From the NCBI RefSeq assembly GCF_009914755.1, contig NC_060927.1: a stretch of DNA of 64,000 bases. The stretch is one strand, 5' to 3'. The stretch is from the human T2T-CHM13v2.0 reference genome, Homo sapiens. Position numbers and translations under genes: made by a program. Under the pieces are notes generated by a model, which saw only the letters and a program-made list of their open reading frames with translations, was not told the DNA's origin and did not search any database. Positions 3,925-54,537 of the stretch are shown piece by piece. Position 1 is the stretch's first letter, and every line of letters begins with the position of its first letter.

Positions 3925-4717
3925 TTTTTTTTTTTTTTTTTTTTTGTGAAACAGTCTCACTCTGTCACCAGGACTGGAATGCAGTGGCATAATCATAGCT
4001 CACTGTAGCTTTGACCTCCCAGACTCAAACGATCCTTCCTCCCACCTCAGCCTCCTGGGTAGCTGGGGATACAGGCACACACCACCACACCCAGGGATTC
4101 AGGCACACACACCACCACACCTGAGGATACAGGCACACACACCACACCTGGGGATACAGGCACACACCACCACACCTGGGGATACAGGCAAACACCACCA
4201 CACCTGGGTATGCAGGCACACACCATACCTGGGGATGCAGGCACACACACTACACCTGGAGATACAGGCACACACTGCCACACCTGGGGATACAGGCACA
4301 CACCACCACACCTGGGGATGCAGGTACACACACCACACCTGGGGATACAGGCACACACCATACCTGGGGATGCAGGCACACACACTACACCTGGAGATAC
4401 AGGCACACACTGCCACACCTGGGGATGCAGGCACACACCACCACACCTGGGGATGCAGGCACACACACCACACCTGGGGATACAGGCACACACACCACCA
4501 CACCTGGGGATATAGGCACACACATCAGCACACCTGGGGATACAGGCACACACCCACACCTGGGGATACAGGCACACACACCACACCTGGGGATACAGGC
4601 ACACACACCATACTTGGCTAATTCTTATATTTTTTGTAGAGACAGGGTTTCAGATAGGGTTTCGCTACATTGCCCAGGCTGGTCTTGAACTCCTAAGCTC
4701 AAGCCACCGCCTGCCTT
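3925..4717 (-). mobile_element. Old Alu (J-like) with an internal minisatellite
   Basis: Alu sequence at 3925-4062 resumes at 4614-4717. Confidence 0.85.
4063..4613. repeat. Minisatellite, 20 units of about 26-31 bp (ctggggatacaggcacacaccaccacac)
   Basis: Counted 20 caggc/caggt/taggc cores. Confidence 0.95.
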
Positions 4718-6207: not shown

Positions 6208-6306
6208 ACAGGGATGACGTTGAATGAGCGGTTTGGGATCCTGAAGGAACAAAGAGCCACTCTCACATACAACAAAGGGGGAAGCCGCTTTGTCACCGTG
6301 GGATAG
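6208..6306 (+). CDS. FYTTD1: FYTTD1 last coding exon ([32 protein letters not shown]-stop)
   Basis: Long pyrimidine tract + tag acceptor; phase 0; TAG stop at 6304-6306. Confidence 0.95.
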
Positions 6307-8695
6307 GTCCCATGTCAAAGGAACTTTTGAGTGATGACTCTGAGAAGTTGAATTGCTTGAAGAGTTCATCACGGAAATTCAAGAAACTTTACTTCAAAAT
6401 ATTCACAAGGCTAAATAACTCTTATTTTTATTTTTGAAGGTTTTTTTTTTTAAAAAAAAAAACGTATAAAATAATGCCCTGAAAGAATAATAGGGATTAT
6501 ACCTGTCTGTTCTTAAAGATTTCATGGTTGGCTCAGACAGAACAATCATCTGTTTGACTTCTTTGGTTCCTCATGCAGCAGAAGGAAGACAGAAAGATAG
6601 AAATTGATTATTTTTATGATAGCGGTATTCAGGATCTCATCACCTTTGCCCGTGTTTTAGACTTTGTCATGGTAAATCCTGGTCTTCATAAACATGAGTA
6701 GGTCCCTTGGTTGCTGTCACTTGCCCTTTAATAGTGTTGATGTAGTCAGTGCCGTTGCCTTTTCTTCATTAGAGACACAGAACAATGTATTAGAATTTCC
6801 AGCTGTGGGTTTGAAGACTTAGGGGGACATCCAGAACGTGCTTCCTCTTTCAGACGGTGTAAAGTCCCCTGGAATTACACAGCTTTAGTGCTGAGCTTTT
6901 AACAGGAAATGTGGCCCTAGGTATTAGTCTTAGTTTAAAATGTTGGTGTTTAGAGACTGTAAATGCATATTCACAAAGTTATCTGATAGGGCCTTGGAGG
7001 AGAAGGTCCAGTTTTAAAAAATGACAGTTTGTGTTTAATAAATGAAGGCATGAGAGGAAGTAAGTAGCAAGTTGAAGGACAGGTAGTTGAGATGAAACAC
7101 TTCAAAACCCTGGTTATAGATGTACTGTTTGGATGTAGCATAGTCTTGAGTCTAGCGTCCACAAAGAATTATTCAAATGATATTTAGAAGAATTATAACT
7201 ATTACATTGAATGGAGTCCCTTGGATATTTTGATAGTAAAATTAATAGCCATAAAGTCCTAGACTTCTTATTTGAAGTTAAAATTTCTTATTTGAAAAGT
7301 TGAAATTTATGAGCTTTGAAGATTGCTAAATTAAATAATTTATAGCTCCAAAAACAAAAATATACTTGTATATGTCACAGAGAAAAAAAATGCAAAATTT
7401 ATAATAGAGTTACATTAACCTTGTTGTTTACCTTTCACTGATTTCTTATATGGTATAAATTAAAGTTCAGGCATTTATGGGGAGAAAAGGCCCTCCCCAC
7501 CGACCCGCCACCTGCCACCTCTGACGGAGTGGGAGAAGTTAGTCTGTGCTAAGATAGTACTGAGTCCCCAGATGTTGTATACTGTAAATTACAGTATAAT
7601 GCCAAATGCAGCAAAATCTTCCAGCTGTACGTTACAAGTTTGGTCATTTTGAAGCTTGACATTTTAGTTTGCCATTATGTTAAAAACATCTAAATAGGTG
7701 TTAGTTTCTCAGGAGTAGATTGTTAGTGTTGACTTTTCCTGTAAAGCAGACATCGTTCTTGGCCTGCCCTGCATTGTATACTAGATTTCATTGTTGTCTC
7801 TCATGCTTCTTGAGTTGCTTCATGGTTTATGCTCGCCATGGAAAGCTATCAGTAACAGTTTCATGCTTATACCAAAGAATTAAATCTGATCTTTAATATC
7901 TGATATTTTCCTGGTACTCGTACTGATAAGGGATTATTGGAAGTCAGTCACAGAATTTGGAAATAAATTCTAGTCTCTCCTTAGCTATTTGATGCTTTTC
8001 ATATAGGCCAAGAACTCATTGCAAAACATTTTTGCAAGGATGAATGCCTGTATTTGGTCTAGGAACAGTACATTTTAGTCTGATTTAGAATTACTGGTAG
8101 CTTATTTTAAAGCAAGGAAAAGCAGCTGAGCTCAAGTTTGCTGTCTTTAGAATGGTTTGTGAAAATATGGTATAAAGGTGTTTTCATTTTCCTGTTCTTA
8201 CCTATTATTGTATAGAGCTATTCATGCCATTTTTTGGGAAAACTTTAAAAATTGCCCCAAATACTGACATTGAGTGCATTAAATAACAAATTATCTTTGA
8301 TACATTAAACTTTTATTCTTCATGCATCTGTAATTTAATTTTAAGTATAATGTTTTGCCTTTGGTACAACTAAATTAAAACTCTTGGTGGTCACATATTG
8401 TATATAAACAAAACAATATGCTTTGTTGAAGGAAAATTTTCTTTATTGGAATGTGGTTGTAATCCTTGTTCAGTTCTTAAGTTTCGGTTTTTTTTAAAAA
8501 CAGGATGCAACTTAAACTTTTCTTTGCATCAAGGTATATGCAAAACATTGGTGCCGTGCATCACCAAATGAAAGTTTGTATTTAACGAGGAGGTGCTTTA
8601 CACTGTACTTTTTGGTGTTTTTTGGAAAAGTTACATTTAGATCTATTCTGAAGCTGTTCATTTTTAACAAATAAAATGTTACAGGTTTCACATGA
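6307..8695 (+). other. FYTTD1: FYTTD1 3' UTR (repeat-poor proximal form)
   Basis: AT-rich, repeat-free stretch after the stop, ending at AATAAA plus a GU-rich downstream element. Confidence 0.7.
8670..8675 (+). terminator. Polyadenylation signal AATAAA (proximal/major candidate)
   Basis: Followed by gagttgtggtttttagattgtt at about 8718-8740; other AATAAA at 7037 and about 7962. Confidence 0.7.
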
Positions 8696-8910
8696 TTTAT
8701 TCTCAGCTCTAAAGATTGAGTTGTGGTTTTTAGATTGTTCTATGTTACGAAGAACTTTGTAGTGGTTATCTATATTTGTAGTTTTTAGGGTGTGAAACCT
8801 TATCTACTAGCAAAATTGGTAAATCACTGTAGACTCTTCTATTAGCATCCCTCTCTCTTTTGATGATTTCATTTGTAGCTCCAACAAATGAATCTAAAAA
8901 GAAGAATCCA

Positions 8911-9267
<357 letters not shown>

Positions 9268-9623
9268 TTAACCCCTCCTTTTTACACCTTAGTAAAGTGA
9301 GTCCTAGTGTTTTCAAGACTTGCATGTGGCAGAGTTATTTTTTGAGCTCAGATCTTCTAATTCTTAATTGATAATAAACTGCTTTGGTGAATTAACACCC
9401 ACAGAAAATAGTGGAATGGTGTGTGGTTTTCAAATACCTAAGAATTGGTAATAGCCATGCTTTAGCATTTTTAGCATGGTAAGTAAATCTATTCTACCAG
9501 TGATGGTTATACTTTATTACTTTGCTATTTGGGTTAGGTAGACCTGTTAGAAAAGTCCAGTGTTCCTAATCAGATATGCATTTTTTAAAAACAGGCATAA
9601 ACTCTTCACCACAATTTTAATTA

Positions 9624-9833
9624 CAGTCATCCCTCAGTATACACGGAGGATTGGTTCCAGGACCCTTGTATATACCCAACCCTGCGCAATACTGAAGTCC
9701 CACATCTGTGTAAACGAAAAGTTGGCCCACTGTGTACATGGATTTTCCATTCCAAGATGTTTTTTTGGTTCAAAACAATTTGCTTATAAGTAGACCCAGG
9801 TAATTCAAAGCCATGTTGTTGAAGGGCCAACTG
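9624..9833. mobile_element. MER2-type Tigger DNA transposon (internally deleted)
   Basis: tacagtcatccctcagtat...ttggttccaggaccc start and ccatgttgttgaagggccaactg end. Confidence 0.75.
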
Positions 9834-9868
9834 TTTAAGCCAATCGTAAAATACTGTGTCTGAGGAAA

Positions 9869-10082
9869 CAGGCCTCATTGCTCAGCAGTGAGTTTTTATT
9901 AGACTAGGTATGTATATCATTATTAATATTTTACTGTAAATAGCTTTGTAATTCACACAAAGTATACGGGCCCAGCAGGCCTCATTGCTCAGCAGTGAGT
10001 TTTTATTAGACTAGGTATGTATATCATTATTAATATTTTACTGTAAATAGCTTTGTAATTCACACAAAGTATACGGGCCCAG
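9869..10082. repeat. Perfect 2 x 107-bp tandem duplication
   Basis: 9869-9975 reads identical to 9976-10082. Confidence 0.97.
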
Positions 10083-10450
10083 AATAATTTTTGTTGATTT
10101 ATTTTTACTATAAGGAGATAAGAGAAAAAATAGCTCACTTGGCAGCACAGAAAATGAATACCATATTGGCAATATTAAAGCAGAAAATAATTCATTTCTG
10201 ATCAGTAGTGCTTTCAGTTTTCATCAGAATTATTATTATTATTATTATTTTGCCACTGTGAAAAAGCAGTTAAGCATGTAAAACTTCCCTTTAGAGAGGG
10301 TTCTTTTTGGATAGATCAATTTGGAACTAGCTTCTTTTTTTTTTTTTTAAATGATACTTCAGTAAACACAGCATTTACAACAAGAATTGTGGACTATGGT
10401 GGACCATTAATAGGGATTTAAAGATTTACTTAGAAATTGTAGACTTCTAA

Positions 10451-11786
<1,336 letters not shown>

Positions 11787-11956
11787 AGAAGTGGAGTCTT
11801 AGAAGGAGTGACCATGATATGTTTCTACTGAGTAGAAGGGGGAAGGGAGGACATAACCTTTGCATGATATAGTGAAATGCAGAGCTGGAAAGAACTATTA
11901 AGATTTGAGTGAAACTTTTGCCCCCTGTGTTGAATGAGTTAACTTTCAGTCTGTAA

Positions 11957-11962
11957 AATAAA
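11957..11962 (+). terminator. Candidate distal FYTTD1 polyadenylation signal AATAAA
   Basis: AATAAA preceded by UGUA (ctgtaaaataaa); use is inferred. Confidence 0.5.
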
Positions 11963-12279
11963 CAGGAAGAACTGGGAAGTACACTGTATCAATTGCTAAC
12001 ACTGAATAACCTGCGCTGCCTGTTTTTTCAGCTTCTGCTCCCAGACCACAGACCAGTGGTGGAAGAAGTTACAGATCCCTGTAAGCCACTTTGCTCCTGG
12101 CCTTTGTACAACTATCTTTCATCATTTCTTTTATTCATCATTAGACTCTTTGGTGAACTCCCCACAAAGACTCCATTTCCTATATCTCTTTCTCATAAGA
12201 CGCTGTCACCTACTTTATGGAGATGACTGAGAGAGTAGGGTAAGAATTCCCTCATAGTCTACCTTTACTTTGTAGCTGA

Positions 12280-17499: not shown

Positions 17500-18491
17500 A
17501 GTACTTGGTGTCTTATTTTATTTTAAAATCTTAGATTGAGCACATTTTCTATGCTTTGCAGTCATTAAAAATTTATAAGTATTACATATGATTCACTCAT
17601 TTTGGAAAAATAAACAGAACTGTTAAACTAAAGAAGCGATTCTTTCCAAAGAAACTTTTGCTGTAGTTTAAAATAGAAGAAATTAAATGCCTGCTTATTT
17701 AATCTCTTTTTGGAAACAGTTGAACTGAATATTTTTTAGTGATTTAAAGTTTCTTGCTAAGGTAAATATGAGCAGCCACTTTCCTTTTGTGTGTGTTCTG
17801 GTAGACGGCATGTAAAATTATCATTCACACCTCAGATTTCCTGCTTCTGTTTAGGAGATGGCTATATGGTATAGTGATTTCATATTGGTGTGAGTCATTT
17901 CATTGTTACTACATCAAGCCTGAAGCTAAAGAACAAGTTGATTACAGGAGTCTGTCTAGCTCATTTTCTCACCTGCTTTTCAGTAGGTCTAGGAGCACCG
18001 TGTTGAGTCCTTAAATATTTTATTGACTAAGAAAATCCAAGTGCATTTATGAAGAATAATAAGTAATACCAAAGAGGTTTTTCCTTACTGTGCTCTGAGT
18101 TTTTAAGTATGGTGTTGCCTACACTTTAATAGTTTTGTATAGAAACCACATTTTTTGTTGGTTGATTTTTCATCTGGTCAAAACGTGTAAAAAGAAAATA
18201 AAAAGATTACAAGGTATTTTATAAGCTATTAGACTAGATTCATTTCTAACATGTAGTAATATCACTTATGAAATATAAAAAAAAATCTTTGGCAGACCTT
18301 GCTCGTTACCCAGTCTCTGTTTTAAACAGATAATTTAATGCCAATGACATCATTTATTGAGTGTTCACTATTTGTAATTCACCGTGTTAGATATTTTGAA
18401 ATATACTGCCTTGTTAAATGCACACAATAATTTGTGGATTAAATACTATCCCCACTTTACATGTGAGGGATCACCTAGAGAAAGTCATATG

Positions 18492-18635
18492 GCTATCACC
18501 ACTATATAGTATCACTGGTAGGATTTTGGCCCAGGTTATAGCTATCACCACTATATAGTATCACTGGTAGGATTTTGGCCCAGGTTATAGCTATCACCAC
18601 TATGTAGTATCAGTGGTAGGATTTTGGCCCAGGTT
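18492..18635. repeat. About 3 x 49-bp tandem repeat within MIR-like sequence
   Basis: gctatcaccactatatagtatcactggtaggattttggcccaggttata starting at 18492, 18541, 18590. Confidence 0.93.
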
Positions 18636-29845: not shown

Positions 29846-30187
29846 AGAGGGGGACACGCCTCCAAACTGAAAACCTAATGACAGCCGACATGCAGAATGG
29901 TAAGATCTCTAGGCATCTCCCTGCTTGGCTGATATACTCCTCTGATTATTGGAGTTTTTAGAGGGGGACACGCCTCCAAACTGAAAACCTAATGACAGCC
30001 GACATGCAGAATGGTAAGATCTCTAGGCATCTCCCTGCTTGGCTGATATACTCCTCTGATTATTGGAGTTTTTAGAGGGGGACATGCCTCCAAATTGAAA
30101 ACCTAATGACAGCCGACATGCAGAATGGTAAGATCTCTAGGCATCTCCCTGCTTGGCTGATATACTCCTCTGATTATTGGAGTTTTT
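29846..30187. repeat. 3 x 114-bp near-perfect tandem repeat
   Basis: Units start at 29846, 29960, 30074; the third has 2 substitutions. Confidence 0.96.
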
Positions 30188-30250
30188 GGAGAAAATCTAG
30201 GGGAAAAGAGAAAAGATTTTAAGGTATCGGTACTTACAGAACCCAAATGA

Positions 30251-50187: not shown

Positions 50188-51380
50188 TAGCCAGGATGGT
50201 CTCGATCTCCTGACCTCGTGATCCGCCTGCCTCGGCCTCCCAAAGTACTGGGATTACAGGCTTGAGCCACCGCGCCCAGCTGATTTTTCTTATATTTTTT
50301 ATTATTCATTTCTGTGTCATTTTGTGTTACCTTATGGTAAAATAGTTCCAACCATTCTTATGAATTTTTAATTGCTACCATTATATTTTTTCATTTCTAC
50401 AAACTCATTCTGTGATTTTTAAAAAATATTCCTTTTATGTTTCAGTGATTAAAGACCTTCTCTTTCTGAAACTAAAGATAGTCTAGCTTTTCAAAATTTT
50501 CTTCTGCTTTCTATAAAATACCTGTTTCTTCTGAGTTCCTTTTTTTGGTTAGTTAGTTGGTTTTGATGTTGGAGATGTCTAAATGTCTGTGGATCATATA
50601 CTATCTTTATATGGCTGATTAGAAGTTCTCAGTATACTGGGCAGAAATTGTATAATGGTAATTAAACAACAAGCTGTGTATTTTATTAGAAGAAATTCTG
50701 TATCATTATATAAAGGCCTTTTATATGGGACTGTGAAGTTTATCCAGAGAAAGAAGCTCCATTTCTTCTTCGTTATTGTGTATATTCTTAAGTACAGCCA
50801 TTCCTGGGATGAAGTGGGATAGGGTGGGGTGAGAAGGTGCTGAGGTCTTAATGTTAAGTGTGTAGACTTTGACTTAACTCCTCCATTTTTAGCTGGCAAC
50901 TCCTCCTGACTTTTGTCATCCTATTGTGCCTGGGATCCCTTAGTTCCGAGCATTTTTGATTCAATTTCACTAGAAAATAACTTGCTGATTCCTGGGAACA
51001 TTGGAGAAGGATAGTGCCCCAGCTGTGTTAGTGGGGGCTGTTGACCCAGGCATTTAACTGTTCTTTATGTAGAGTGTTATCTAATCCTTTTGTTATCCTC
51101 ACCTTCTTGTGGTATCAGGGCCTCCAGCTTCTGAGACTTTCTGTAGTTCTGAGCGGGTCAAAGCTGCTTTTTATTAGTAATCCTGTCTATAGGCAACTGG
51201 ATCTCATTTTTACCACTTTGCTACCACTTTTCTCATTTTTACCACTTTGCTACCAGTTAATCACTAAAAGAGAATGGGAGTAAATATCTATGTTAAAATC
51301 ACATTTAACTAGAAGCTTTGTAAAAATTCTCTAGTTGTAAAACATCATTAATTGTTCATTTCCATTTTACCTTCTTGCAG

Positions 51381-51517
51381 AGCTGGCGGAGTTGCCTTTG
51401 ATACGGTTAGACTTCTCATGCAATAAAATTACCACAATCCCTGTTTGTTATCGGAACCTCAGGCACCTACAGACGATCACCCTAGATAACAATCCACTAC
51501 AATCACCTCCTGCACAG
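51381..51517 (+). CDS. LRCH3: LRCH3 exon 5, 137 nt (LAELPLIRLDFSCNKITTIPVCYRNLRHLQTITLDNNPLQSPPAQ)
   Basis: cttcttgcag acceptor, CAG/gtaaac donor. Confidence 0.96.
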
Positions 51518-51974
51518 GTAAACCATAGTGGAAGCATCAGGTAAACCATGGTGGAAGCATCAGGTAAACCACGGTGGAAGCATCTGGTGAACCATAGTGG
51601 AAGCATCAGGTAAATCATAGTGGAAGCATCAGGTAAACCACAGTGGAAGCATCAGGTAAACCATAGTGGAAGCATCAGGTAAACCATAGTGGAAGCATCA
51701 GGTAGACCATGGTGGAAGCATCAGGTAAACCATGGTGGAAGCATCAGATAAATCATGGTGGAAGCATCAGGTAAACCATAGTGGAAGCATCAGGTAAACC
51801 ATAATGGAAGCATCAGGTAAACCATAGTGGAAGCATCAGGTAAACCATAGTGGAAGCATCAGGTAAACCATAGTGGAAGCATCAGGTAAACCATAGTGGA
51901 AGCATCAGGTAAATCATAGTGGAAGCATCAGGCAAATCATAGTGGAAGCATCAGGTAAACCATAGTGGAAGCAT
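51515..51974 (+). repeat. Minisatellite, 20 x 23 bp (caggtaaaccatagtggaagcat), starting at the exon-5 donor
   Basis: 460 bp = 20 exact-length units. Confidence 0.97.
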
Positions 51975-52473
51975 CGCATGGACTTTTTTTGGACAAAGGA
52001 TGAAATTTAAAATTTCATGTACATTTATCATTCGGTTAGAAAATAATTTCTTTTAAAATGGATTCACATACATATGTATTTTTGAGAAGCCTTGAATTAA
52101 TGGATTAGAAGATAATGTTTCCAGAAGTATTTTTCCTTTCTCTAAATTGGTATTTCTTTTTAAATTGAAGAATTCTTCCCTAAATTTTTTTCTAATAAAA
52201 TTTTAGTTAATTTCTTAATTTTTTCTTGTAAAATTTTAGTTAATTTCTTTATTTTTTTCTAGTAAAATTTGAGTGTAGACACCATAAATGCTAGAGACAG
52301 GCCAGGTGTGGTGGCTCATGCCTGTAATTCCAGCACTTTGGGAGGCCGAGGTGGGCAGATCATGAGGTCAGGAGATCGAGATCATCCTGGCCAACATGGT
52401 GAAACCTTGTCTCTACTAAAAATACAAAAATTAGCCAGGTGCGGTGGTGGGCGCCTGTAGTCCCAGCTACTCA

Positions 52474-52638
<165 letters not shown>

Positions 52639-52811
52639 CTATCAGTAGATTTCTTTTTCTGATCATTGTTATTATAACCTTCCTAATTCTAAAGTCACAA
52701 ATTCCTACTTTAGACAGTTTGGTCATTTGTTTACCAGTGACTGAAGTGAAGCTATACAGTAATAATTATAAAGTAGCTTTACATGTAGATGCTGGACATC
52801 CTACAACCTAG

Positions 52812-53054
<243 letters not shown>

Positions 53055-53230
53055 TAGCCAGAATGGTCTCAATCTCCTGACCTCATGATCCACCTGCCTC
53101 GGCCTCCCAAAGTGCTGGGATTACAGGTGTGAGCCACCGCGCCCGGCCCCCTTAGCTCTTTTTAACTCTGCAGTTTATTGACGATTTTGTACAAGCATAT
53201 GTTACTCTTTTTTTTTTTTTTTTTTTTTGA

Positions 53231-53431
<201 letters not shown>

Positions 53432-54067
53432 TGAACTCCTGACCTCAGGTGATCCACCCACCTCAGACTCCCAAAGTGCTGCAATTACAGGTGTGAGCCA
53501 CTGTGCCCGGCGGCATATGCTACTCTTTATGGCAACTATAAAACTTTATGAGTAAACTTCCTAACAATAGAAGGGTCTTATAAGCCTCAAGAATTTGTGT
53601 TTTGACTTCTGGGACAAGTAGCAACAGAAATATATGTAATGTTTCATGATTTCCTGCTCTTCTCTCTCAAAGCAGAATCAAAAACTTAGTTGTATATGAT
53701 TGTTGGATTCCTAAAAGTAAAAGTTGCTTCATGTAATCTAATGAGGAGAAATGCTTTAAATCTCTGACTATGCAAACTAGTCAGTGTGATAAGTTTACTT
53801 GGTATTTGAACAGTATAATCAAAAGTTATTTATTTATATATTACTGAAATGTATTAGTGACTAGAAAATGAAAACATATTTACCAGTTAAACACCTAAAA
53901 TAACACTTAACCAAATAATATAATTTATTAGTTTTTAAATATTACTGTATGTACTTGATAGAAATGCCTCCCTTTCCCAATGTATGTTACATAAAATGTT
54001 GATATGATAAAAAGGAGCATACTTCAGATGAGTAATAATTTGGCTACATCTGTGTGACTTTATTTAG

Positions 54068-54177
54068 ATATGTATAAAAGGCAAAGTCCACATATTTAAA
54101 TACCTGAACATACAAGCTTGTAAGATTGCTCCAGATCTGCCGGATTATGATAGGAGACCGTTGGGTTTTGGCTCCTG
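54068..54177 (+). CDS. LRCH3: LRCH3 exon 6, 110 nt (ICIKGKVHIFKYLNIQACKIAPDLPDYDRRPLGFGS)
   Basis: tttag acceptor, TG/gtaagt donor. Confidence 0.95.
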
Positions 54178-54351
54178 GTAAGTATATTCTGTCCCTTTAT
54201 CTATCATATTTTTTGTACAGAGAATCAAATAAAATGGATACTTAAATTTGCCTGAATGTTTGACTAAAGGGAAATAACCTGTTTTAACACTGTTATTCTC
54301 AGAATGCTTGTATTGTAAAGTTGATTACCTAGATCTGGCAAAGTCTAGTTC

Positions 54352-54537
54352 TAAGGGTTTCTCAACCTTGGCACTGTTGACATTTTAGATCAGATAATTC
54401 TTTGTTGTGATGGGCTGTCCTGTACATTGTAAGACATTTACCAGCATCCTTGGTGTCTGCCCATTAGATAGATGCCAGTAGTACCCTCGCAAAGTCTCCA
54501 AATGTCACCTTGGGGCCCTCCAGTTGAAAACTACTGG
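54352..54537. mobile_element. MER20 (hAT-Charlie) element
   Basis: ggtttctcaaccttggcactgttgacatttt...cagttgaaaactactg. Confidence 0.8.

What the first reader, a model, noticed from the sequence alone, without database searches (positions are those of the whole stretch)
51515..51974. Minisatellite built from a splice donor: 20 tandem copies of the LRCH3 exon-5 5' splice site
Seen: the 23-bp unit begins with the last 3 exon bases plus the donor (CAG/GTAAAC), so the true donor is unit 1 of 20. Eighteen units keep GT (unit 11 has AT, unit 19 has GC). Units 5 (51607) and 18 (51906) read CAG/GTAAAT, closer to the U1 consensus than the real site. Use of donor 2 adds 23 nt (frameshift); any later donor includes an in-frame TAA (GTA AAC CAT AGT GGA AGC ATC AGG TAA). 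Inference: only the most 5' copy is productive, so the array could act as a copy-number-tuned U1 decoy or NMD rheostat, or yield an LRR-only truncation. It is also a natural test of how one donor is chosen among many identical ones.
Basis: partly seen in the sequence, partly recalled or inferred. Interest (0 to 1): 0.8.

Follow-up and report, generated by a model that had tools for sequence, protein, structure and literature searches.

The report
Minisatellite repeating the LRCH3 exon-5 splice donor
A 23-base unit that starts with the end of LRCH3 exon 5 and its splice donor is repeated 20 times into the intron; this is real, but it is one more example of a kind of repeat already studied in F7, IFI6, CBS and ABCA7.

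Summary
Tandem Repeats Finder gives 51515-51975, period 23, 20.0 copies, 94% matches, no indels. Unit 1 holds the last 3 bases of exon 5 and the annotated donor. 18 of 20 units keep GT. 14 of 20, the true site included, are identical from -3 to +8. Exon 5 ends in phase 0. Donor 2 adds 23 nt and stops at 54075-54077 in exon 6. Donors 3-20 all read into the TAA at 51542-51544. The unit occurs nowhere else in the T2T genome, and the paralogue exons on chr13, chrX and chr7 share the junction but have no array.

The kind is known. Borensztajn 2006 used the F7 intron-7 minisatellite, whose first unit spans the junction, as this same natural test. Only the most upstream donor was used, and the identical pseudo-sites were functional but silent. 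That paper lists IFI6, CBS, LMNB2 and PDGFA. ABCA7 is a later case, where single-unit retention was about 2% and did not depend on repeat length.

I found no mention of the LRCH3 array. Verdict: a new member of a known kind. The decoy or rheostat reading is not supported.

The parts
51381..51517 (+). LRCH3 exon 5 (137 nt). It encodes the last leucine-rich repeat and ends in phase 0 with ...PPAQ (CAG).
   Evidence: Hub annotation; translation; Pfam LRR_8 at 8.8e-07 and LRR_4 at 1.5e-06 on the exon peptide.
51515..51974 (+). Minisatellite of 20 head-to-tail units of 23 bp. It takes up the first 18% of intron 5 (2550 nt).
   Evidence: TRF; units; intron share.
51515..51523 (+). Authentic 5' splice site CAG|GTAAAC (unit 1), with 7 contiguous pairs to the U1 5' end (-3..+4).
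   Evidence: exon end from the hub annotation.
51538..51546 (+). Pseudo-donor of unit 2, identical to the true site. Its use would add 23 nt and shift the frame.
51542..51544 (+). In-frame TAA reached by any transcript spliced at donors 3-20 or retaining the intron (VNHSGSIR*).
   Evidence: open frame 51341..51544.
51584..51606 (+). Unit 4, weakened donor CTG|GTGAAC.
   Evidence: duplex -5.4 against -8.3 kcal/mol.
51607..51629 (+). Unit 5, donor CAG|GTAAAT (extra pair at +6).
51745..51767 (+). Unit 11, GT lost (CAG|ATAAAT).
51906..51928 (+). Unit 18, donor CAG|GTAAAT.
51929..51951 (+). Unit 19, GC in place of GT (CAG|GCAAAT).
54068..54177 (+). LRCH3 exon 6 (110 nt), the acceptor partner. The TAA at 54075-54077 is the stop reached after use of donor 2.
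   Evidence: Hub annotation.

Best explanation
This is a locus-specific intronic minisatellite. It arose by tandem duplication of a 23-bp segment that spans the exon 5/intron 5 junction of LRCH3, so the 5' splice site is reiterated down the first 457 nt of the intron.

Shown here: the anatomy, the frame consequences, the uniqueness of the unit in the genome, and the absence of an array in the paralogues.

Inferred from the studied cases F7, IFI6, CBS and ABCA7:
- The splicing machinery takes the most upstream functional donor, the one that closes the 137-nt exon. It leaves the identical downstream copies unused.
- At most the next one or two copies are used, at a few percent (+23 nt, +46 nt).
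- Those products carry a stop far upstream of the last exon junction and should be removed by nonsense-mediated decay.
- The array is most likely a neutral or slightly costly by-product of minisatellite mutation, not an evolved regulator.
For: Structure.

Frame.

Origin:
- The unit is found only here in the 3.1-Gb assembly: 19 matches at up to 2 mismatches, all in the array.
- The three paralogue exons (chr13, chrX, chr7) end with the same ...PPAQ CAG|GT but have no tandem repeat at the junction.

Annotation: the hub's RefSeq table lists no other exon end in this stretch among 18 transcripts.

No sign that the donors are kept or removed by selection: 9 of 180 substitutions at unit positions 1-9 against 8 of 280 at positions 10-23, p = 0.31.

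No special RNA fold: z = -0.29.

Precedent:
- In F7, only the most upstream of 5-9 identical donors is used. All of them are functional, and 50 constructs support oriented 5'->3' selection (abstract, introduction and discussion read).
- In IFI6 and CBS, only the two nearest pseudo-sites are used besides the true one.
- In ABCA7, the one-unit retention isoform is 2 +/- 1% and does not depend on length (passages read).
Against: - No transcript data were available, so the use of donors 2-20 in LRCH3 is untested.
- Work with two strong sites in vitro and in HeLa cells finds the opposite rule: the intron-proximal site wins at separations of 45 nt or more. 'Upstream wins' is therefore not universal.
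- The LRCH3 donor (7 contiguous U1 pairs) may be stronger than the F7 site UGG|gugggu; I did not compare them.
- In ABCA7, expression and skipping of the next exon do scale with repeat length. A length effect in LRCH3 cannot be excluded.
- Unit positions 15-23 are invariant in all 20 units (0 of 180 against 17 of 280, p = 2e-4). This could hint at constraint, although the units are not independent.
Confidence: 0.75

Rival explanations
1. Length-dependent modifier without design (ABCA7-like). The array is polymorphic, and longer alleles lower LRCH3 expression or raise skipping of exon 5 or exon 6. Both skips shift the frame (137 and 110 nt). The effect would come through intron length, bound proteins or many U1 sites, not through use of the pseudo-donors.
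For: - In ABCA7, repeat length tracked lower expression (33% between extremes). Downstream-exon skipping was 3.2-fold higher at the largest than at the smallest allele combination.
- Secondary citations say the intronic CUL4A VNTR alters splicing.
- In F7, exon skipping rose as the first usable donor moved further from the exon.
- Exon 5 and exon 6 lengths are both 2 mod 3.
Against: - The ABCA7 effects involved alleles up to 10.7 kb, whereas this array is 460 bp.
- No LRCH3 entry appeared in the held supplements of three VNTR expression studies.
- No paper holds both LRCH3 and sQTL.
- Copy-number variation was not testable here.
Confidence: 0.17
2. The array is a copy-number-tuned U1 decoy or NMD rheostat: the pseudo-donors draw off splicing in proportion to their number and so set the LRCH3 output.
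For: - 13 of 19 downstream units carry a donor identical to the true one, and 2 more have an extra +6 pair.
- All of their products are unproductive.
- Two U1 snRNPs can sit on two alternative sites in complex E.
Against: - F7 pseudo-sites do not compete even when strengthened to a consensus value of 91.
- ABCA7 unit retention and NMD did not depend on repeat length.
- Surplus U1 is purged before commitment, leaving one per complex.
- The 23-nt spacing is below the roughly 30-nt threshold that those authors ascribe possibly to steric interference between U1 snRNPs.
- The donor positions are not better kept than the rest of the unit.
Confidence: 0.05
3. The array yields a stable LRR-only LRCH3 protein (259 aa plus VNHSGSIR) with a function of its own.
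For: - Exons 2-5 hold the leucine-rich repeats, with exons 2 and 5 above the Pfam cut-offs, and exon 6 holds none.
- The stop comes 8 codons past exon 5.
- A single AATAAA lies at 52194, 220 nt past the array.
Against: - The stop lies many exons upstream of the last junction of a 21-exon transcript, so NMD is expected for spliced forms (established rule, recalled).
- The hub's RefSeq table shows no transcript ending in intron 5.
- By recall, arrays of U1 sites suppress nearby polyadenylation (telescripting) and favour nuclear retention. Neither was tested here.
Confidence: 0.02
4. Assembly artefact or chance similarity.
For: None found.
Against: TRF score 803 with no indels. The 460-bp array lies within a telomere-to-telomere assembly. 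The reversed control pattern gave 0 genome-wide hits.
Confidence: 0.01

Closest known systems
F7 intron 7 minisatellite (37 bp, 5-9 copies; Borensztajn et al. 2006, PMC1557585)
   Same: The first unit spans the exon-intron junction, so the true donor is followed by identical pseudo-donors. Only the most upstream is annotated or used. It was already proposed and used as a natural model of 5' splice site choice.
   Different: The unit is 37 bp and holds 4 exonic bases, and the donor is weak (UGG|gugggu). LRCH3 has a 23-bp unit, 3 exonic bases, 20 copies, and a donor with 7 contiguous U1 pairs. F7 has minigene and patient data; LRCH3 has none.
ABCA7 intron 18 VNTR (25 bp, about 12-427 copies; De Roeck et al. 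2018, PMC5954066)
   Same: The array flanks the exon and begins at its donor GT. Use of the second donor retains one unit, shifts the frame and gives a premature stop. The unit size is nearly the same.
   Different: The ABCA7 unit starts at the GT and is C-rich, and alleles reach 10.7 kb. Length associates with exon 19 skipping, lower expression and Alzheimer's disease risk. None of this is known for LRCH3.
IFI6 (6-16) intron 2 minisatellite and CBS exon 13/intron 13 31-bp VNTR
   Same: They reiterate the donor 25 times (IFI6) and about 15-20 times (CBS). Only the two nearest pseudo-sites are used besides the true one. The CBS name c.1444_1467+7(16_21) shows that it spans the junction.
   Different: Both are known here only from secondary descriptions. 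Turri 1995 is not held, and Yang 2000 and Lievers 2001 were seen only as reference-list entries. The title of Yang 2000 reports that a substitution in the second CBS repeat prevents multiple alternative splicing. LRCH3 units 2 and 3 keep intact donors.
LMNB2 (100 bp x 10-15) and PDGFA (81 bp x 16-18) junction-reiterating repeats
   Same: The exon-intron junction is reiterated and only the true donor is used.
   Different: The units are much longer. Known here only through the F7 paper's introduction.
Duplicated strong 5' splice sites in model pre-mRNAs (Hodson et al. 2012, PMC3413131)
   Same: Several equivalent donors compete for one acceptor, and more than one U1 can bind before commitment.
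   Different: There the intron-proximal (downstream) site wins at separations of 45 nt or more. In LRCH3 the annotated site is the most upstream, and the spacing is 23 nt.

Membership tests
Minisatellite whose first unit spans an exon-intron junction and reiterates the 5' splice site (F7 / IFI6 / CBS / ABCA7 type) | Head-to-tail array of units of about 10-100 bp | tested here: met
   Period 23, 20.0 copies, 94% matches, no indels.
Minisatellite whose first unit spans an exon-intron junction and reiterates the 5' splice site (F7 / IFI6 / CBS / ABCA7 type) | The first unit contains the last exonic bases and the authentic donor | tested here: met
   The array starts at 51515 and the exon ends at 51517 (hub annotation). 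Unit 1 is CAG|GTAAAC. The upstream 23 nt match the unit at only 4 of 23 positions.
Minisatellite whose first unit spans an exon-intron junction and reiterates the 5' splice site (F7 / IFI6 / CBS / ABCA7 type) | The donor sequence is repeated unchanged in downstream units | tested here: met
   13 of 19 downstream units are identical at -3..+8. 2 more have GTAAAT, and 4 are weakened or lack GT.
Minisatellite whose first unit spans an exon-intron junction and reiterates the 5' splice site (F7 / IFI6 / CBS / ABCA7 type) | Only the most upstream donor is used, with at most the next one or two | not testable with these tools
   No transcript data were available. The hub's RefSeq table lists only the 51517 exon end among 18 transcripts.
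Minisatellite whose first unit spans an exon-intron junction and reiterates the 5' splice site (F7 / IFI6 / CBS / ABCA7 type) | Copy number varies between individuals (VNTR) | not testable with these tools
   Only one human assembly is held. LRCH3 was absent from the held supplements of three VNTR surveys; stored files may be cut.
Decoy 5' splice sites that hold back splicing (RSV negative regulator of splicing, P-element pseudo-sites; recalled) | The pseudo-sites bind U1 and lower use of the true site | not testable with these tools
   U1 complementarity is present, but binding and effect were not measured. The F7 and ABCA7 analogues argue against competition.
VNTR derived from a dispersed element (for example the SVA-internal VNTR) | The unit is found at other places in the genome | tested here: not met
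   All 19 genome-wide matches at up to 2 mismatches lie in this array.

The most novel reading that the evidence does not exclude
The LRCH3 array is copy-number polymorphic, and its length changes LRCH3 output in cis. The route would be exon 5 or exon 6 skipping, or use of donors 2-3 followed by NMD.

Its 23-nt spacing is below the roughly 30-nt separation at which paired U1 sites begin to behave independently. Its donors may also be stronger than the F7 site. It would therefore separate 'oriented scanning from the exon' from 'intron-proximal site wins' more sharply than F7 does.
Probability: 0.2. Interest if true: 0.45.

Novelty: new member of a known kind. Interest (0 to 1): 0.3.

Why it matters
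Junction-spanning minisatellites place many equal splice donors in a row, so they are natural experiments on how the spliceosome picks one site. In ABCA7 such a repeat has been associated with disease risk. The LRCH3 array adds a 20-copy example with short spacing and a well-matched donor (7 contiguous U1 pairs). I found no mention of it in the searched literature. It could be read out cheaply from existing RNA-seq and long-read assemblies. The principle, the expected outcome and the experimental design have been in print since 1995-2006, so it would refine what is known and not change it.

Tried and rejected
- RNA structure that might hide the pseudo-donors: the fold of exon 5 plus the array was no better than shuffles (z = -0.29, 9 of 20 shuffles as good).
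- Known RNA family: 0 Rfam matches in 50500-54500.
- Coding potential of the array: no open frame of 25 aa or more runs through the array on either strand. The longest that overlap it are the 67-aa exon 5 read-through and a 67-aa minus-strand frame at its 5' end (51448-51651). The other four sit at its 3' edge.
- Dispersed-repeat origin: rejected.
- Selection for or against the donors: no difference between the donor positions and the rest of the unit (p = 0.31).
- Mukamel 2023 (CUL4A), Turri 1995 (IFI6) and Sulovari 2019 are not held. CUL4A and IFI6 details therefore rest on secondary citations.
- Hamanaka 2023 sized only motifs up to 20 bp, so a 23-bp unit falls outside its catalogue.
- One search was badly framed: its minimum of 2 of 5 terms did not force LRCH3, and none of the 25 listed papers held LRCH3.
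- One search was rejected for a term with an apostrophe. It was replaced by a differently worded search.
- Orthologues in other primates and other human haplotypes could not be reached with these tools.

Full report
**What is there**

Tandem Repeats Finder reports one array at 51515-51975: period 23, 20.0 copies, 94% matches, no indels, score 803, consensus CAGGTAAACCATAGTGGAAGCAT. I cut it in register from 51515.

- Unit 1 is CAG|GTAAAC. By the hub's annotation the CAG is the last three bases of LRCH3 exon 5 (end 51517), so the GT is the annotated donor.
- 18 of 20 units keep GT. Unit 11 has AT and unit 19 has GC.
- Units 5 (51607) and 18 (51906) read CAG|GTAAAT.
- Two further departures were not mentioned: unit 4 is CTG|GTGAAC and unit 9 is CAG|GTAGAC.
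- 14 of 20 units, the true site included, are identical from -3 to +8.
- 9 of 20 units equal the consensus over all 23 bases.
- The borders are sharp. The 23 nt before the array match the unit at 4 of 23 positions and the 23 nt after it at 9 of 23.
- The array fills the first 18% of the 2550-nt intron 5.

**Chance and origin**

- A scan of the whole 3.1-Gb assembly for the unit, with up to 2 mismatches, found 19 matches. All lie inside this array, none on the reverse strand, and none for the reversed control pattern. It is therefore a locus-specific repeat, not a piece of a dispersed element.
- The exon 5 peptide finds three paralogous exons, on chr13, chrX and chr7, at 60-76% identity. All three cover residues 1-45.
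- Each paralogue exon ends with the same ...PPAQ and CAG|GT. None has a tandem repeat at the junction.
- The junction is therefore old and the array is a later, LRCH3-specific addition.
- I could not date it. No other primate genome or human haplotype is within reach of these tools. Shared variants between units (T at position 9 in units 5, 11, 18 and 19; G at position 13 in units 2, 3, 9, 10 and 11) show spread by duplication, which spoils any clock.

**Consequences for the message**

- The coding sequence through exon 5 is 777 nt, so the exon ends in phase 0.
- Splicing at donor 2 would add 23 nt, shift the frame and stop at 54075-54077 in exon 6 (VNHSGSIRYV*).
- Splicing at donors 3-20, or retaining the intron, reads VNHSGSIR and stops at the TAA at 51542-51544.
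- Exons 2-5 carry the leucine-rich repeats. Exons 2 and 5 score above the Pfam cut-offs, exons 3 and 4 below them as fragments, and exon 6 has no match. A product ending here would be LRR-only.
- The stop lies many junctions upstream of the last exon of a 21-exon gene. By the established rule (recalled), such spliced messages are NMD targets.

**Strength of the sites**

- In the canonical register the true donor and its 13 exact copies make 7 contiguous pairs with the U1 5' end. The computed duplex energy is -8.3 kcal/mol.
- The GTAAAT units gain one pair at +6. It is isolated behind the +5 mismatch, and the computed energy does not change.
- Units 4, 11 and 19 are clearly weaker, at -5.4, -1.6 and -4.5 kcal/mol.
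- The RNA of exon 5 plus the array folds no better than shuffles (z = -0.29), so nothing suggests that structure hides the copies.
- There is no Rfam match.
- No open frame runs through the array on either strand; the six frames of 25 aa or more that overlap it all sit at its two edges.

**What is known**

The literature search turned up a direct precedent. Borensztajn et al. 2006 (PMC1557585; abstract, introduction and discussion read) describe the F7 intron 7 minisatellite.

- It has a 37-bp unit in 5-9 copies, and its first unit spans the exon 7 junction.
[quoted passage not shown] - Pseudo-sites raised to a consensus value of 91 still do not compete.
- Exon skipping grows as the first usable site moves away from the exon.

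Their introduction lists earlier cases:

- IFI6/6-16 has 25 pseudo-sites, of which the two nearest are used.
- CBS has 15-20 repeats, with two pseudo-sites used.
- LMNB2 and PDGFA use only the true site.
- The CBS repeat's systematic name, c.1444_1467+7(16_21), confirms that it spans the junction.

De Roeck et al. 2018 (PMC5954066; passages read) describe a 25-bp ABCA7 repeat that begins at the exon 18 donor.

- One-unit retention (frameshift and premature stop) was 2 +/- 1% of transcripts.
- It did not vary with repeat length, and length had no effect on NMD.
- Exon 19 skipping and lower total expression did scale with length.

The intronic CUL4A VNTR is cited by others as altering splicing. 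The primary paper is not held.

**A real tension**

Hodson et al. 2012 (PMC3413131; abstract, introduction and passages read) studied two strong sites.

- Both sites bind U1 in complex E, and the surplus U1 is purged on the way to complex A.
- The intron-proximal (downstream) site wins almost wholly at separations of 45 nt or more.
- There is a threshold near 30 nt that the authors suggest may reflect steric interference between U1 snRNPs.

The LRCH3 spacing is 23 nt and the annotated site is the most upstream. LRCH3 therefore follows the F7 rule and not the model-substrate rule. This is the one respect in which the locus could still teach something.

**Best explanation (about 0.75)**

This is a junction-spanning minisatellite of the F7/IFI6/CBS/ABCA7 kind.

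- Shown here: the anatomy, the frame consequences, the uniqueness of the unit, and the lack of an array in the paralogues.
- Inferred by analogy: the first donor is chosen because it is the first functional site after the exon. Copies 2-3 are used at most at a few percent, and their products are degraded. The array has no evolved regulatory role.
- In keeping with that, the donor positions are no better and no worse kept than the rest of the unit (9 of 180 against 8 of 280 substitutions, p = 0.31).

**Rivals**

- A length-dependent side effect on expression or on exon 5/6 skipping, as in ABCA7 (about 0.17).
The F7 and ABCA7 results speak against it.
- A stable LRR-only protein (about 0.02).
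- An artefact (about 0.01).

**Is the LRCH3 array in print?**

I found no mention of it.

- Full-text searches for LRCH3 with VNTR, 'tandem repeat', minisatellite and sQTL gave 1, 1, 0 and 0 papers.
- I read the LRCH3 passage of the VNTR hit, and it concerns a transposon insertion in the promoter region.
- I did not open the 'tandem repeat' hit. By its title it is a breast cancer metastasis study.
- LRCH3 does not occur in the held supplementary files of three VNTR surveys: Bakhtiari 2021, the Cell Genomics 2024 study and Eslami Rasekh 2021.
- Stored supplement files may be cut, PDFs are not held, and most subscription papers are not searched. The absence is therefore not proof.

**Verdict**

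This is a new member of a known kind, of modest interest.

Noticed in passing
window 51515-51974, unit positions 15-23: The last nine bases of the unit (TGGAAGCAT) are invariant in all 20 units: 0 of 180 substitutions against 17 of 280 at positions 1-14, Fisher p = 2e-4. The units are not independent, so this may be homogenisation and not constraint.
   Followed up: partly
window 51976-51980: A single GCATG lies directly after the last unit. By recall this is the pentamer bound by RBFOX proteins. One copy is within chance.
   Followed up: no
window 52184-52274: A 33-bp repeat of 2.7 copies (87% matches) contains the only AATAAA/ATTAAA hexamer of intron 5, at 52194, 220 nt past the array.
   Followed up: no
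window 9869-10082: A perfect tandem duplication of 107 bp (2.0 copies, 100% identical) lies inside the FYTTD1 last exon / 3' UTR (6208-11978). It looks recent and may be polymorphic.
   Followed up: no
window 4063-4617: A second 20-copy minisatellite: 28-bp unit, 85% matches, with higher-order periods of 83 and 135. It lies in the FYTTD1 intron before the last exon.
   Followed up: no
window 18488-18635: A 49-bp repeat of 3.0 copies at 96% overlaps the RefSeq enhancer feature 18494-18573 in LRCH3 intron 1.
   Followed up: no
window 29846-30191: A 114-bp repeat of 3.0 copies at 98% identity in LRCH3 intron 1.
   Followed up: no
window 51538-51583: Units 2 and 3, the pseudo-donors most likely to be used by analogy with IFI6, CBS and ABCA7, keep donors identical to the true site. 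In CBS, by contrast, a substitution in the second repeat is reported to prevent multiple alternative splicing (title of Yang 2000, seen in a reference list).
   Followed up: partly
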